A DNA stretch of 63,700 nucleotides, filler included, from Reclinomonas americana ATCC 50394 (GCA_048213135.1; 6 parts of 3 records of this genome joined end to end with filler, not necessarily neighbours in it); one strand, 5' to 3'. Shown: positions 871 to 4,907, counted from the first letter of the whole stretch. Notes: generated by a model not told the origin, from the sequence alone. Made by a program: numbers and translations.

Positions 871-3800
871 ATGTCGACACGGGAATTGAATGGTCACCTT
901 GGCGCGGTGTTTTGTGTCGCCGTCACTCTCGACGGACAGCACGTAGTGAGTGGAAGCTCTGAAAAAACCATTCGAGTTTGGTCACTGTCGAGTGGAGAAG
1001 AAGTGCAACATAAACATTTAGGCAACGGGGTGCGATCAGTTGCCATCACTCCCGATGGAAGGCACATTGTGAGTGGGAGCAGGGACCCGAGAGTGCGCCT
1101 GTGGTCGCTGGCAAGTGGAGAAGAAATTCGACAGTTGGAGGGACACAATGGCTGGGTGAATTCTGTCGCGGTCACTCCCGATGGTCAGTTCATTCTGAGT
1201 GGGAGTGATGACAGGACAGTGCGGGTGTGGTCTGTGGCGAGTGGAGAAGAAGTGTATCAGTGGGAGGGACACACTGGCTGTGTGTTTTCTGTCGCCGTCA
1301 CTCCCGATGGTCAGCACATCGTGAGTGGGAGTGGAGACAACACCGTGCAAGTGTGGTCTTTGGCGAGTGGAGAAGAAGTGCGCCGATTGCAGTTGGAGGG
1401 ACACACTGATGCGGTGAGGTCTGTCGCCGTCACTCCTGACAATGAACACATCGTGAGTGGGAGTGCTGACAAGACAGTGCGAGTGTGGTCACTAGAGAGT
1501 GGAGAACAAGTGCAACGGTTGGAGGGACACACTGGCTGTGTATTTTCTGTCGCCATCACTCCCGATGGGCAGTACATTGTGAGTGGGAGTGATGACACGA
1601 CAGTGCGAGTGTGGTCACTAGCGAGTGGAGAACAAGTGCAACGGTTGGAGGGACACACTGGCTGTGTATTTTCTGTCGCCGTCACTCCTGATGGTCAGCA
1701 CATTGTTAGTGGGAGTTCCGACTGTACAGTGCGAGGTATGTCGCCGTGCATGCACACTTGCACCCTATGTCCATGAGTTCAAGTCCTCTCACAGTTTCCG
1801 ACATTGATACCACGACGCCGCCGTCGCTGCCTGCACTGTGGCTACCGGAAGTGCTTATAATGAATAGCTACCAAAGTGCACGTGTGGATCAGGCTTTAGC
1901 TCACGTTGTATGGGAGATTCTCTCGTGCAGATTTGAGGTGAGCTCCTCTCGGATTGCTTGTCTCTTGCGATTGTTGGCGATTAATCTCTCATTTTTTGTC
2001 GTTTGACATAGAATTACGACAGCAATCATAGCGTGGTCTTGGAGGGACGACACACTCTCTGCGTTGCGTCTGTTGCCGTCACTCCTGATAATCTGCATAG
2101 TGTAAGTGGGAGTGCGGACAAGACAGTGCGAGTGTGGTCACTGTTGCGTGGAGAAGAGGTGCGACGGTTGGAGGGACACACCCGCAGGGTGTCGGCTGTT
2201 ACCGTCACTCCTGATGGTCAGCACATTCTGAGTGGGAGTGCTGACAAGACACTGCGAGTGTGGTCACTATCAAGTGGAGAAGAGGTGCGACGGTTGGAGG
2301 GACACACCCGCAGGGTGTCGGCTGTTACCGTCACTCCTGATGGTCAGCACATTCTGAGTGGGAGTGCTGACAAGACACTGCGAGTGTGGTCACTATCAAG
2401 TGGAGAAGAGGTGCGACGGTTGGAGGGACACACCAGCACGGTGTCGTCTGTTGCCGTCTCCCCCGATGGTGAGCACATTGTGAGTGGGAGTGCTGACAAG
2501 ACACTGCGAGTGTGGTCACTGTCAAGTGGAGAAGAGGTGCGACGGTTGGAGGGACACACCAGCACGGTGTCGTCTGTTGCCGTCTTCCCCGATGGTGTGC
2601 ACATTGTGAGTGGGAGTTTCGACGAAACTGTGCGAGTGTGGTGTCTGGTGCGATGGAAGGAAGTACGACGGTTAACAGGACACGCTGGAAGGGTGTTGTC
2701 TGTCGCCGTTACTCCAGATGGTCAGCACATTGTGAGTGGGGGCGCGGACACAGAAGTGTTTTTGTGGTCAGTGATGAGTGGAGAAGTAGTTCGACGGTTG
2801 ACGGGACACACTGATGCAGTGCATTCCGTCATTGTTGCTCCCGATGGTCATCACGTTGTAAGTGGGGGCATGGACAACAGTATGCGATTATGGGAATTAT
2901 ATGAACACGAAGGTGTGTGTTTCTTCGTGCTTGTTCGTATCCGTATGTTTGCTCATGCATTATCTCGATTATGTTCAAGGTTCCTGTCATTCTCCTTCCC
3001 TCCGACAGCAAGCGCGACTTAGCAGTAGAGCATCGTTGCCTCATATCACTCCCGCCCCCGTCGCTGCCGACCAGGCATTATCACCGCAACTTGCTGAACT
3101 TGAGGCACGGCTGCGAGAAGAGTTGGCCAAGTCTGCAGCCCTCGACGCGCGGCTAGTTGCCACGGAACAGCAGCTGCAGGCAGAGTGCGCTATCGTCGCG
3201 CAGCTTCAGATAGACCGTGCTTCTTCTCAGCAACGCCAGGAAGCGATGGCCGCTGACCTCTCCACCGCTCTTCAACAACTGGCAGGTGAGCAGCGACAAT
3301 CGCAGCTGCTACAGGGTGAACTCCGCACTGTCCAGCTCGAGAGGGACGACTTTGTCCTCCGCAACAGCAACCTCACCGCTTCCATCGACGTGCGACTACA
3401 GGTGGAGCGCGCTGCCGCCGCCGAGCAACAGACGAGACTTCAAGCTGAGTGCGACCAAGTTGTCGCACAACTCTCCGCCATTCGTCAACAACTGGCGGCG
3501 TCGGCGTGGCAGTCGCATCAATTGCAAGCCGAGCGAGACCGAATCGTATCCCAGCTTTCTGTCTTACAGGGCCAGTCGGCGACCTTGCAAGATCAACTTC
3601 GAGATGCCGAGCGACTGCTGGAGGAGAAGGATCACATCATTTCCCGACTCCGGCAGGATCTCCTCCTCGCTCAAGGTCGGTCTCTCAGACTTTCCTCCAC
3701 AATCTCAGCATTTGCCCTCCCGCCCACCTACCCTCCTGTCTCTGCATTCAGTCGACACCTCAGTGCGCCGCTTCGAGTGGCCTGAGATTGTGCAAGCCAC

Positions 3801-4907
3801 CAACTCGTTCTCCCCACGCCTTATTGTGGGCGAAGGCGGCCAGGGTGCCGTGTACATTTCCATACTTCACGAGATGCATGTGGCTATCAAGGTGCTCGAC
3901 CCTGCGGCGTCGTGGACACTTGCATCTTTTGAGAGTGAGGTCTGTCTCCCGTTTCGCGTTCTCACTCGCCTTATGATGATAACTCACTCACTTCACTCGC
4001 GCGCCGGTACCAGATGGCCACCCTCGGCCGCCTGCGCCACCGCCGCATTGTCCCGCTCGTCGGCTATGCTGTGGGCGACGACAAGGAGCGCTGTCTCGTG
4101 TACAAGGCCCTCGAGTGCGTGTGAGACTCTCCCAGTCTCTCTGGGGTTTCAAACGTCGTCATCGCTCTCACTATCAACATAGAGTTCCTAACCTGGAAGA
4201 CCTGTTGTTGCTGCGCGTCGGGCGGGAACCACTCACTGTCGTGCAACGCGTGCAAATTGGTCTGGGATTGGCCGAGGCAGTGGCGTTCTTGCACCAGGTC
4301 CGTGAGAATATGTTTTCTTCTGCGTCCCGCGTTCTCACTCATCATCGCCGCCACGCTGTGCAGTATGCAGTGGTGCACCGCGACATCAAGCCCTCCAACG
4401 TACTGTTGGATCACCGACTGGAGCCCTGCCTTGGTGACTTTGGTATTGCGCGGAAGATTGTCGACGGCCAGGTTTGCGCATTTTGCACGTGCACCACGTG
4501 CACATCAATCTGCTCCACGTCCCACGCCATCTCTGACACGCTGACAGACCACCACTGCTGCCGGTTCGCTGGGCTACATGGACCCTCTGCATATGCACAC
4601 GAGGAGCCCGCAGCCAGAGAGTGATGTTTTCTCCGTGGGCATTGTGCTCGTGCAGCTGGTCACCAGCAAATCAACAACAGCCATCCGTGAGTGGTCGTAT
4701 GCATGGGATCGCACGCCAGCCTCCCTCCGTATTATGGAGCTGGTGGATGGCGGAGTGGAGTGGACGGCCCGGATTGCCGAGCCCATGTTTGAACTCGGCA
4801 TGCGATGTATGAGCATGCGACGCGACCGGCCGACGGCGCAAGAGGTTGTTGATGCCATGCGTGTGCTGCGCGAGGCATGTGGGCAGTTCACCATGATCAT
4901 TGAGTAA
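871..4907 (+). CDS. Two 7-bladed WD40 propellers + coiled coil + IRAK/Pelle (RLK-family)-like protein kinase
   Basis: Exons 871-1735 (7 WD40), 1795-1937 (linker), 2012-2912 (7 WD40), ~2980/3013-3675 (coiled coil), then kinase exons from 3752 to TAA 4907. Kinase motifs: [71 protein letters not shown]. Splice phases are compatible; the coiled-coil acceptor is ambiguous. Confidence 0.8.
1030..2890 (+). repeat. 126-bp coding tandem repeats (WD40 units), very high nucleotide identity, in two blocks
   Basis: Unit ...gagggacacac...gtcactcc(c/t)gatggtcagcacatt..gagtgggagtg..gac..gacagtgcgagtgtggtcact...agtggagaag. Sequence ~2150-2434 is an exact 126-bp-period duplication. Confidence 0.95.

What the first reader, a model, noticed from the sequence alone, without database searches (positions are those of the whole stretch)
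871..4907. WD40(x14)-coiled coil-IRAK/Pelle kinase: candidate cytosolic immune receptor kinase
Seen: two exon-encoded 7-repeat propellers, a long coiled coil, and a kinase preceded by [16 protein letters not shown]. No signal peptide or TM segment is visible. Known: the F.w.El..ATnnFs lead-in with GEGG.G.VY, L.H..IV.L.GY and G..GY.DP typifies RLK/Pelle/IRAK kinases, which signal in plant and animal immunity. Inference: a soluble sensor in which a variable WD40 ligand-binding surface drives coiled-coil oligomerisation and kinase activation. I do not know this architecture from described proteins. Catalytic K, HRD and DFG are intact, but the APE Glu is replaced (MDPLH).
Basis: partly seen in the sequence, partly recalled or inferred. 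Interest (0 to 1): 0.85.

Follow-up and report, generated by a model that had tools for sequence, protein, structure and literature searches.

The report
Double WD40 propeller fused to plant-type kinase
This is most likely one real gene for a soluble protein that joins two WD40 propellers of the kind used as sensors by fungal and bacterial immune-like receptors, through a long dimer-forming helix, to a kinase related to plant and animal immune kinases. Similar but unstudied fusions exist in a few other organisms.

Summary
On the + strand, 871-4907 reads as one multi-exon gene of about 1,116-1,123 aa. All eight inferred introns are GT-AG and 62-164 nt long.

- **WD40 part.** Two exons each encode seven WD40 repeats. 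The first exon folds as a closed seven-bladed propeller.
- **Stalk.** A 197-residue single helix follows and is modelled as a parallel coiled-coil dimer.
- **Kinase.** It has an intact catalytic Lys, HRD and DFG, but reads DPL where APE is expected.
- **Soluble.** No membrane segment was found.

The kinase belongs to the RLK/Pelle/IRAK family. It sits in a supported clade with plant U-box kinases (RLCK-IXb type), which also carry a coiled coil directly before the kinase.

The WD40 units are closest to those of fungal NACHT-WD40 and bacterial STAND receptors. They vary most at the four positions that are positively selected in fungal HET-E/NWD genes.

The architecture is rare but not unique. 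WD40-kinase fusions in the same kinase clade occur in a Gefionella transcript and in two Chara braunii predicted proteins, none studied.

An immune role is inference only. No RNA data could be obtained, and three splice junctions remain ambiguous. I rate it a new variant of a known kind, of moderate interest.

The parts
871..1735 (+). Exon 1: ATG at 871 and WD40 units 1-7 (propeller 1). The last unit is cut by the intron after TVR.
   Evidence: Pfam WD40 at E 8.4e-82 with 7 stretches. AF2 model of a closed 7-bladed propeller with pLDDT 95.3. Unit alignment.
1736..2011 (+). Intron region between the propellers. It is either two introns around a 38-nt mini-exon (1900-1937), or one intron from an alternative donor at 1729. 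It also contains decayed repeat-like sequence.
   Evidence: Frame and splice-site reasoning. TRF runs its 126-nt array through this region. No RNA evidence.
2012..2914 (+). Exon 2: WD40 units 8-14 (propeller 2). The units at 2165-2290 and 2291-2416 are 100% identical in DNA. The exon end is 2914, or 2912 in model B.
   Evidence: Pfam WD40 at E 3.4e-77 with 7 stretches. Pairwise unit identities.
3009..3675 (+). Exon 3: about 24 residues of linker, then a 197-residue helix (about 3081-3671) that forms the coiled-coil stalk. In model B the exon starts at 2980.
   Evidence: AF2 single helix over residues 25-221. Homodimer model with score 0.35 against a best control of 0.00. Heptad scan.
3752..3939 (+). 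Exon 4: kinase lead-in [16 protein letters not shown], glycine loop GEGGQGAVY, catalytic Lys (3889-3891) and the alpha-C Glu region.
   Evidence: PDB phmmer: 46 of 48 matches are plant receptor(-like) kinases or IRAK1/4; the best is LYK3 at E 1.3e-4.
4014..4114 (+). Exon 5: [18 protein letters not shown]...CLVYKALE, including the Tyr at the gatekeeper position. An alternative donor gives an end at 4120.
   Evidence: Alignment with relatives. An end at 4114 gives the family's length at this junction (YKALEVPNLED against YEYLPSGNLED).
4183..4297 (+). Exon 6: hinge to alpha-E (VPNLEDLL...AVAFLHQ).
   Evidence: IRAK1 alignment, first stretch over query residues 4-39. Alignment with relatives.
4298..4363 (+). 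66-nt in-frame GT-AG intron. If it were retained it would add 22 residues.
   Evidence: The IRAK1 match skips query residues 40-61. The stretch 4298-4363 encodes residues 39-60. Relatives have only 5-8 residues here.
4364..4471 (+). Exon 7: catalytic loop HRDIKPSN (HRD at 4376-4384) and DFG (4436-4444).
   Evidence: Pkinase at E 6.3e-9. The best PDB match is IRAK1 at 40.7 bits.
4548..4907 (+). Exon 8: activation-segment end [10 protein letters not shown] (Leu at 4587-4589 in place of the APE Glu), the C-lobe, RDRP in subdomain XI, and the TAA stop at 4905-4907.
   Evidence: PDB phmmer: 57 of the 60 rows shown are plant receptor(-like) kinases or IRAK4; the best is SymRK at E 6.9e-7. Exhaustive search gave 494 hits.
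4896..5020 (.). AT-rich stretch (GC about 0.2) directly after the stop codon, probably the 3' end or intergenic spacer.
   Evidence: It is one of only two stretches in the whole window with GC at or below 0.28 over 60 nt. None lies between the WD40 and kinase parts.

Best explanation
**What it is.** 871-4907(+) is one gene for a cytosolic protein of about 1,120 aa. It has three parts:
- two seven-bladed WD40 propellers of the highly self-similar type found in fungal NACHT-WD40 (HET-E/NWD) and bacterial STAND receptors;
- a stalk helix of about 197 residues that pairs two chains in parallel and in register;
- an RD-type Ser/Thr kinase of the RLK/Pelle/IRAK family. This kinase sits at the base of the clade that holds the plant RLCK-IXb U-box kinases.

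**How it most likely works.** The stalk holds two kinase domains side by side. The four propellers of the dimer bind protein partners on their top faces. Partner binding then changes how the two kinase domains can phosphorylate each other and their substrates.

**Shown here.**
- the domain make-up;
- the kinase family;
- the WD40 type and where its units vary;
- that a parallel dimer of the helix is modelled.

**Inferred.**
- a single transcript;
- catalytic activity;
- ligand control;
- any role in non-self sensing, which I put at roughly one in three.
For: **Gene model.** All parts lie on one strand and join in frame through 8 GT-AG introns of 62-164 nt.
- The only AT-rich stretch in 600-5300 follows the final stop.
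- It is one of two such stretches in the 63.7 kb window.

**Domains.**

**Dimer.**
- Score 0.35 (median of 3 runs) against a best control of 0.00.
- That mark was reached by 21 of 30 proteins solved as pairs of one chain and by 0 of 23 solved as single chains.
- On eukaryotes it was reached by 17 of 29 pairs and 0 of 30 single chains.
- The runs agree in at least 79% of contacts, and partner pLDDT is at least 77.
- Contacts recur every 3-4 residues from residue 10 to 205, between the same residue numbers in both copies.

**Kinase family, PDB matches.**
- For the C-lobe, 57 of the 60 rows shown are plant receptor(-like) kinases or IRAK4.
- For the N-lobe, 46 of 48 matches are of this kind.
- The best match of the catalytic piece is IRAK1.

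**Kinase family, exhaustive search and trees.**
- An exhaustive search of 1.84 billion representatives gave 494 hits at E<=1e-3.
- Of the 37 hits I scanned with Pfam, many carry plant RLK ectodomains or a U-box.
- The 15 named proteins among the 20 I looked up are all streptophytes, apart from one Gefionella transcript.
- The window kinase falls in a 22-row clade with the U-box kinases. Support is SH-like 98 among 91 rows and SH-aLRT 99 among 40 rows.

**Shared coiled-coil-kinase layout.**
- A Pro-free, heptad-compatible segment directly precedes the kinase in P0066, P0057 and Chara P0010.
- The PUB33 helical domain is predicted to form a coiled-coil homodimer, and PUB33 self-interacts in yeast two-hybrid (passages).
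- RLCK-IXb proteins have the layout USP, Smc-like domain, kinase, U-box (passages).

**WD40 type.**
- The best relatives are fungal NACHT/NPHP3_N-WD40 proteins at 45-56% identity, and bacterial STAND, CHAT or kinase-WD40 proteins.
- The most variable unit positions are 7, 8 and 10 (flanking invariant V9) and 26 and 28 (flanking D27), each with 6 residue types among 12 complete units.
- They lie in the D-A loop and the B-C turn of the model.
- These match the two pairs (7,9 and 25,27) under positive selection in Podospora NWD genes (passages).

**The fusion occurs elsewhere in this clade.** It is seen in a Gefionella transcript (P0114) and in Chara proteins P0010 and P0011.
Against: **No transcript evidence.**
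- No run was listed and no genome is held.
- Three junctions are ambiguous.
- If the intron after 2912/2914 were retained, the WD40 frame would stop at 3022.

**Kinase activity is uncertain.**
- The APE Glu is Leu.
- Two relatives that also lack this Glu have lost other catalytic residues. P0114 reads HLD, and Closterium P0134 reads HQD with no DFG Asp. The Chara kinases lack the HRD Asp.
- This branch of the family may therefore often be catalytically dead.

**Tree placement is uncertain.**
- The window kinase sits on a long branch (1.78), so its basal position is unsure.
- No tree was built against non-RLK TKL families.

**Variation in WD40 loops is weak evidence.**
- Variation in the D-A and B-C loops is also what relaxed constraint on any WD40 would give.
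- Positions 19 and 36 vary as well, and I take them to face the bottom of the propeller.
- There are no population data.

**Other limits.**
- There is no NTPase switch, so the analogy to NLRs covers the sensor part only.
- The dimer pass may reflect the model's memory of coiled coils in general.
- The gene starts 870 nt from the window edge, so further 5' exons cannot be excluded.
Confidence: 0.6

Rival explanations
1. The gene and protein are the same, but it is an ordinary scaffold kinase. The propellers recruit fixed cellular partners or substrates, as in many WD40 proteins, and there is no role in non-self sensing or rapid diversification.
For: - WD40 propellers are generic interaction platforms.
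- The 14 units differ by 16-40% in DNA apart from one identical pair, so most are not recent copies.
- RLCK-IXb relatives are regulators rather than receptors.
- Variable loops are expected in any repeat protein.
Against: - The nearest WD40 relatives are overwhelmingly NLR-like or STAND proteins.
- Variation is concentrated at the same four positions as in HET-E/NWD.
- Two units are 100% identical in DNA, which suggests ongoing repeat turnover.
- A STAND NTPase-TPR gene and a paralogous WD40 gene lie in the same 64 kb.
Confidence: 0.3
2. These are two separate genes: a WD40-only gene (871 to about 3022) and a coiled-coil-kinase gene of the RLCK-IX type starting further downstream. My model joins them wrongly.
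For: - Read through, the WD40 frame stops at 3022.
- Coiled-coil-kinase proteins without WD40 are the common form of this clade.
- A WD40-only paralogue may exist at 62186-63370(-).
- There is no RNA evidence.
Against: - The gap is only 67-94 nt, has GT-AG ends, and matches the other introns in size and GC.
- The first in-frame ATG of exon 3 lies about 235 nt into it, inside the helix.
- There is no AT-rich spacer like the one after the final stop.
- WD40 followed by kinase on one Trinity transcript in Gefionella shows that such fusions exist in this clade.
Confidence: 0.1
3. It is a pseudokinase or a decaying or mis-assembled locus. The kinase is catalytically dead, or the repeat array is partly an assembly artefact.
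For: - The APE Glu is lost.
- Relatives have lost catalytic residues.
- P. infestans IRAK-class kinases are all predicted inactive (passages).
- This is a draft assembly with 22 N runs totalling 5,052 N, and it contains a pair of 100% identical repeat units.
Against: - Lys, alpha-C Glu, HRD, Asn and DFG are all present, and no exon carries a stop or frameshift.
- No N run lies within 871-4907; the first is at 10534.
Confidence: 0.15

Closest known systems
Plant RLCK-IXb U-box kinases (PUB32/33/51 type), subfamily IXb of RLK/Pelle
   Same: - Same kinase clade: a 22-row clade with support 98/99.
- Best full-domain identity is 36-37%.
- Same lead-in motif.
- A coiled-coil-like helix lies directly before the kinase.
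- Both are cytosolic.
- PUB33 self-associates, and its helix is predicted to form a coiled-coil dimer.
   Different: - The N-terminal USP domain is replaced by 14 WD40 repeats.
- There is no U-box. The protein ends a few residues after the kinase domain.
- It lies outside the 18-row streptophyte subclade (SH-aLRT 98).
- It reads DPL instead of DPE.
Uncharacterised WD40-kinase proteins: Gefionella okellyi transcript protein (P0114) and Chara braunii GBG83357.1 / GBG83112.1 (P0010, P0011)
   Same: - WD40 is N-terminal to a kinase of the same clade.
- Chara P0010 also has a coiled-coil-like segment in between.
- P0114 also lacks the APE Glu, reading DPV.
   Different: - P0114 has about one propeller's worth of WD40 repeats (Pfam reports 8 stretches; the repeats were not counted for the Chara proteins).
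- P0114 has no long helix and reads HLD.
- The Chara proteins carry 2-3 kinase domains that lack the catalytic Asp, and may be fused gene predictions.
- The C-lobe of P0114 is 30% identical to the window's; whole-domain identities to P0114 and the Chara kinases were not computed.
- A single clade of all WD40-bearing kinases is disfavoured (p-AU 0.019). I named that group after seeing the tree.
Fungal HET-E/HET-D/NWD NLR-like proteins (NACHT-WD40)
   Same: - Same WD40 type, with 45-56% identity to fungal NACHT/NPHP3_N-WD40 proteins.
- High identity between units.
- The same four variable positions on the top face.
   Different: - There is no NACHT or other NTPase.
- There is no HET or other death-type effector domain.
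- The output domain is a kinase, and it is C-terminal.
Animal IRAK4/IRAK1 and Drosophila Pelle
   Same: - Same kinase family by best-match ranking. IRAK1 is the best PDB match of the catalytic piece, and IRAK1/4 also match the lead-in.
- Tyr at the gatekeeper position.
   Different: - There is no death domain.
- The C-lobe scores far better against plant kinases than against IRAK4: SymRK 32.5 bits against IRAK4 15.0 bits.
Bacterial PkwA-type kinase-WD40 proteins and LRRK/ROCO kinases with a C-terminal WD40
   Same: A protein kinase and a WD40 propeller in one chain. The bacterial ones share the same WD40 type.
   Different: - The order is reversed; in those proteins the kinase comes before the WD40.
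- I know the bacterial ones as Hanks-type kinases (recalled), and no bacterial protein was among the 15 named proteins of the 20 kinase hits I looked up.
- ROCO proteins need Roc-COR domains, which are absent here.

Membership tests
RLK/Pelle/IRAK kinase family | The kinase domain is most similar to family members rather than to other kinase groups. | tested here: met
   - PDB ranking: 57 of the 60 rows shown for the C-lobe and 46 of 48 for the N-lobe are family members. The best catalytic-piece hit is IRAK1.
- Of the 20 top kinase hits I looked up from the search of 1.84 billion representatives, 15 carry a name: 14 streptophyte proteins, including PUB51 and a PUB33-like protein, and one Gefionella transcript. 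WAK-, malectin- and LRR-type hits are recognised by Pfam domains only.
RLK/Pelle/IRAK kinase family | Conserved lead-in (F.y.EL..AT..F) before the glycine loop, and Tyr at the gatekeeper position. That these are family hallmarks is recalled, not taken from a call. | tested here: met
   - [16 protein letters not shown] aligns with the lead-ins of LYK3 and BRI1.
- CLVYKAL aligns with LVYE/LIYE of relatives.
RLK/Pelle/IRAK kinase family | Monophyly with IRAK, Pelle and RLKs against other TKL families (Raf, MLK, LRRK, RIPK) in a rooted tree. | not tested
   No named reference sequences of those families could be obtained. Only best-match ranking is available.
Plant RLCK-IXb (U-box kinases) | Kinase within the subfamily clade. 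| tested here: inconclusive
   It lies inside the 22-row clade that contains them (98/99). It lies outside the 18-row streptophyte subclade (98), on a long branch.
Plant RLCK-IXb (U-box kinases) | C-terminal U-box and N-terminal USP domain. | tested here: not met
   - Pfam finds no U-box or USP.
- The stop codon follows the kinase directly.
- Relatives P0066, P0057 and others do carry a U-box.
Plant RLCK-IXb (U-box kinases) | Coiled-coil (Smc-like) helix directly before the kinase. | tested here: met
   for the window protein. for the plant proteins.
NLR-like STAND receptors of the NWD/HET-E type | Central NACHT or NB-ARC NTPase. | tested here: not met
   No NTPase family was found in any exon. 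Exons upstream of the window edge cannot be excluded.
NLR-like STAND receptors of the NWD/HET-E type | WD40 units with high internal conservation that vary at the top-face pairs flanking two conserved residues. | tested here: met
   compared with passages of PMC1805685. The nearest relatives are NACHT-WD40 proteins. Positive selection itself was not tested.
Bacterial PkwA-type kinase-WD40 | N-terminal Hanks-type kinase followed by WD40. | tested here: not met
   The order is WD40 then kinase. The kinase groups with eukaryotic RLK/Pelle.

The most novel reading that the evidence does not exclude
This may be a class of innate immune receptor that has no NTPase switch. A diversifying, NLR-type double WD40 sensor would be wired directly, through a constitutive coiled-coil dimer, to an active RLK/Pelle kinase.

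Together with the Gefionella fusion, it would show two things:
- the coiled-coil-kinase module of plant RLCK-IX predates streptophytes;
- NLR-style sensing and IRAK/RLK-style signalling were joined in one chain in protists.
Probability: 0.15. Interest if true: 0.8.

Novelty: new variant of a known kind. Interest (0 to 1): 0.5.

Why it matters
RLK/Pelle/IRAK kinases carry innate immune signals in plants and animals. They are normally coupled to sensors through membranes or adaptor proteins. Here, a sensor domain of the type used by fungal and bacterial NLR-like receptors sits on the same chain as such a kinase.

The kinase clade is otherwise known from plant U-box kinases, which regulate immunity and are targeted by a bacterial effector. 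If the protein is a receptor, it would give a simple system, open to experiment, for studying how a propeller sensor controls an IRAK-type kinase.

It would also push the origin of the RLCK-IX coiled-coil-kinase module beyond streptophytes. If it is only a scaffold kinase, it is still a documented example of a rare, unstudied domain combination.

Tried and rejected
**Resources that gave nothing.**
- Whole genome: none is held, so paralogues could be counted only within the window.
- Sequencing runs: none was listed, and no RNA holder was listed.
- Earlier scan findings: nothing for this genome or this sequence. The 8 findings shown of the 92 that hold 'WD40 kinase' are bacterial systems and do not bear on this gene.
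- Rfam and tRNA scans of the window found nothing.

**Searches that did not find orthologues.**
- A word-indexed search with the C-lobe among longer proteins scored 681 candidates, none at E<=1e-3.
- The exhaustive search then found only distant relatives. The best was 82.5 bits at 35% identity, so no orthologue is in that library.
- A search with Gefionella P0114 was swamped by bacterial WD40 proteins. Only one further WD40+kinase relative stood out: P0183, from a metagenome, 56% identical.

**Literature.**
- I searched for the architecture (13 papers held at least 3 of the 4 terms, 12 listed; 19 papers; 5 papers; 1 paper).
- By title and start of abstract, none describes a WD40-coiled-coil-RLK/Pelle kinase.
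- I read passages only of PMC3019232, PMC1805685, PMC12803775, 10.64898/2026.02.10.704836 and 10.1101/2020.01.27.920793. The last of these gave nothing usable on IRAK.

**Readings I rejected.**
- A ROCO/LRRK-like reading, because there is no Roc-COR.
- A PkwA-like reading, because the domain order is reversed and the kinase is eukaryotic.
- A membrane-receptor reading, because there is no hydrophobic segment.

**Not resolved.** The organism could not be placed, and I left this open.

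
Full report
**What is there.**

Open frames with WD40 repeats, a Q/L/A/E/R-rich stretch and kinase motifs follow one another on the + strand between 871 and 4907. I joined them by coordinates into 9 exons with 8 GT-AG introns of 164, 74, 94, 76, 74, 62, 66 and 76 nt. The join has no in-frame stop. It gives 1,116 aa in model A and 1,123 aa in model B.

Three junctions have two in-frame solutions each:
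- Exon 1 to exon 2: either a 38-nt mini-exon at 1900-1937, or an alternative donor at 1729.
- Exon 2 to exon 3: 2914/3009 or 2912/2980.
- Exon 5 to exon 6: an exon end at 4120 or at 4114.

For the last junction, alignment with relatives favours 4114, which gives the family's length there.

The 66-nt stretch 4298-4363 is in frame and could in principle be retained. However, the IRAK1 match skips query residues 40-61, which is almost exactly the 22 residues (39-60) this stretch encodes. Relatives have only 5-8 residues at this point.

**Is it one gene?** I could not obtain RNA evidence. No run was listed and no genome is held. The indirect evidence is as follows:
- The gap between the WD40 part and the helix is 67-94 nt. 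It has GT-AG ends and a GC content of 0.45, like the other introns (0.45-0.57).
- The only AT-rich stretch in 600-5300 lies right after the final TAA. Only two such stretches exist in the whole 63.7 kb window.
- A Trinity transcript of Gefionella okellyi encodes WD40 followed by a kinase of the same clade.

I put the two-gene alternative at about 0.1.

**Domains.**

Pfam finds seven WD40 stretches in each of the two large exons, at E 8.4e-82 and 3.4e-77. Exon 1, folded with a 3-row alignment of the window's own propellers, gives a confident model with pLDDT 95.3 and pTM 0.92. Its 28 strands make seven blades.

Exon 3 folds as one helix over residues 25-221, with pLDDT 85.6.

Two copies of that helix are modelled as a parallel, in-register pair, with contacts every 3-4 residues from residue 10 to 205:
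- The score is 0.35 (median of three runs) against 0.00 for the best of three controls.
- That mark was reached by 21 of 30 proteins solved as pairs of one chain and by 0 of 23 solved as single chains.
- On eukaryotes it was reached by 17 of 29 pairs and 0 of 30 single chains.
- The runs agree in at least 79% of contacts, and partner pLDDT is at least 77.

This supports pairing but does not show it. Coiled coils in general may be scored from memory.

No segment is hydrophobic enough for a membrane helix. The highest Kyte-Doolittle 19-residue mean is 1.35.

**Kinase family.**

The kinase pieces had to be searched exon by exon. Against solved structures:
- The C-lobe matches SymRK, BIK1, BRI1, LYK3, FLS2, BAK1, FERONIA, CERK1 and IRAK4. 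Of the 60 rows shown, 57 are of this kind. Three are not (PERK and two XRCC4 rows). Some generic names I assign to plant kinases from memory.
- The N-lobe with its lead-in matches LYK3, BRI1, IRAK1 and CERK1. Of 48 matches, 46 are of this kind.
- The catalytic piece matches IRAK1 best, at 40.7 bits. The next are MAP2K7 at 31.9, SOBIR1 at 31.6 and BAK1 at 31.2.

An exhaustive HMMER search of 1.84 billion representatives with the 119-residue C-lobe found 494 proteins at E<=1e-3 and 25 at E<=1e-10. The best scored 82.5 bits at 35% identity. There is therefore no orthologue in that library.

Within the Python box I ran the spliced domains against the 150 listed proteins. The best full-length kinase matches are proteins with a kinase followed by a U-box (37 of the 150 were scanned). 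They include PUB51 of Tarenaya and a PUB33-like protein of Carex (20 proteins looked up).

**Trees.**
- A FastTree of the window kinase with the 90 full-length kinase domains from those 150 proteins puts it in a 22-row clade with SH-like support 98.
- That clade contains all the U-box kinases, the Chara and Gefionella WD40-kinases, a Closterium protein and three metagenome proteins.
- I then ran an IQ-TREE quick search on those 22 rows plus 18 of the 69 other rows (one domain per protein, the first 18). It keeps the clade at SH-aLRT 99.
- Inside it, 18 rows form a subclade at 98; those I could name are streptophytes (one is a metagenome protein).
- The window kinase, Gefionella plus one metagenome protein, and another metagenome protein lie outside that subclade.
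- The window branch is long (1.78), so this basal position is unsure.
- I had no named sequences of other TKL families. A rooted test against Raf, MLK, LRRK or RIPK was not done.

**Link to RLCK-IXb.**

A simple heptad scan shows a Pro-free, heptad-compatible segment directly before the kinase lead-in. It appears in the window protein, in two plant U-box kinases and in Chara P0010.

Passages of two 2026 papers describe this subfamily:
- The layout is USP, Smc-like helix, kinase, U-box.
- The PUB33 helical domain is predicted to form a coiled-coil homodimer, and PUB33 self-interacts in yeast two-hybrid.
- In Nicotiana benthamiana the subfamily acts as a negative regulator of early immune responses, and the effector RipV1 targets it.

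The window protein shares the stalk-plus-kinase module. It has WD40 in place of USP, and it has no U-box. It is therefore a relative of RLCK-IXb, not a member.

**Catalytic state.**

Lys (VAIK), the alpha-C Glu, HRD, Asn and DFG are all present. The APE Glu is replaced by Leu. Among the aligned relatives:
- Gefionella P0114 (DPV) and Closterium P0134 (DPL) also lack this Glu.
- P0114 reads HLD. P0134 reads HQD and lacks the DFG Asp.
- The Chara kinases lack the HRD Asp.

The window kinase is the only one of the WD40-bearing proteins with a full catalytic set. I expect it to be active, but this is inference.

**The WD40 part.**

The 14 units are 58-100% identical in DNA (12 complete units compared). 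The units at 2165 and 2291 are identical, and the next is 92% identical to them.

The residue variety per position is as follows:
- Positions 7, 8 and 10 are the most variable and flank the invariant V9.
- Positions 26 and 28 flank D27.
- Position 36 is equally variable. Each of these has six residue types among 12 units, with few synonymous differences.
- Position 19 has five residue types.

In the model, positions 7/8/10 lie in and just after the D-A loop, and 26/28 lie in the B-C turn.

Passages of Paoletti et al. 2007 report four codons under positive selection in the Podospora NWD family: 7, 9, 25 and 27. They flank the conserved codons 8 and 26, lie in these same two loops, and sit on the top face of the propeller. 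With my numbering shifted by one, these are the same pairs.

A search with exon 1 among longer proteins scored 8,000 candidates, and 6,346 reached E<=1e-60. The best of the 120 listed are fungal NACHT/NPHP3_N-WD40 proteins (Mycena, Pluteus, Serendipita, Scleroderma) at 45-56% identity, and bacterial STAND-, CHAT- or kinase-WD40 proteins.

This shows the type of WD40 and where it varies. It does not show selection, because loop variation is expected in any repeat.

**How widespread is the fusion?**

Three of the 150 best C-lobe hits combine WD40 and kinase: Gefionella P0114, and Chara P0010 and P0011. A further metagenome protein, P0183, is 56% identical to P0114 and has both domains.

Holding all WD40-bearing kinases together as one clade costs 24.9 log-likelihood units (p-AU 0.019). 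I named that group after seeing the tree. Window plus Gefionella as a clade is not rejected (p-AU 0.11). The fusion either arose more than once, or is old and was replaced in land plants. The data cannot distinguish these.

I found no paper on such proteins. The searches were made, judged on listings only. The P. infestans kinome paper lists five IRAK-class kinases. Four have a membrane segment and all are predicted inactive. It lists WD40 only once, with a kinase of the 'Other' group (passages).

**Context.**

The window also holds:
- a seven-unit WD40 paralogue at 62186-63370(-), about 56% identical;
- a WD40 fragment at 17514-17690, next to a gap;
- a STAND NTPase plus TPR gene at 41769-44849.

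This neighbourhood fits a genome rich in NLR-like parts but proves nothing.

**Verdict.**

The claim of an unknown architecture is weakened, because unstudied look-alikes exist. The stalk-kinase module is also a known plant layout. The immune-sensor reading remains a reasonable but untested inference, at about one in three.

I rate it a new variant of a known kind, with interest 0.5.

Noticed in passing
62186-63370 (-): A paralogous WD40 gene with the same repeat type ([27 protein letters not shown]), about 56% identical to the propellers of the main gene. It has 6-7 units, one of them degenerate. The downstream ORFs on the same strand (58964-60743) match no Pfam family.
   Followed up: partly
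17514-17690 (+): A short WD40 fragment of the same type, 50-70% identical over about 40-60 aa. It starts directly after an N gap (17469-17512), so a further family member may be hidden in the gap.
   Followed up: no
41769-44849 (+): An NLR-like gene. One ORF has a P-loop (GAGGSGKS) and a weak match to 'Novel STAND NTPase 5' (E 1.2e-4, below the cut-off). It is followed by an ORF with TPR_12 and TPR_10 repeats (E 2.1e-25).
   Followed up: partly
2165-2416 (+): Two adjacent 126-nt WD40 units are 100% identical in DNA, and the next unit is 92% identical to them. This is either a very recent tandem duplication or an assembly effect in a draft sequence.
   Followed up: partly
46448-47164 and 50014-50805 (+): Two cullin-family genes about 3.5 kb apart (Pfam Cullin at E 8e-18 and 1.5e-19), apparently tandem paralogues.
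   Followed up: no
26749-27650 (+): A MAPK-like kinase gene. From memory it resembles ERK7/8 (MAPK15). It is interrupted by N gaps. It is the only other kinase hit in the window to the main gene's kinase, at 28% identity.
   Followed up: no
whole window: This is a draft assembly with 22 N runs totalling 5,052 N. Many come as paired 44-N runs 12 bases apart. Long CA/GA/CT microsatellites and homopolymeric amino-acid runs are common. Only two AT-rich stretches exist (4896-5020 and 45506-45565), and both seem to lie between genes.
   Followed up: partly
5155-6006 (+) and 9095-9679 (+): The downstream neighbours are a pyrroline-5-carboxylate-reductase-like gene (F420_oxidored at E 1.1e-12) and an ankyrin-repeat gene (Ank_2 at E 6e-13). 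There is no evident functional link to the kinase gene.
   Followed up: no
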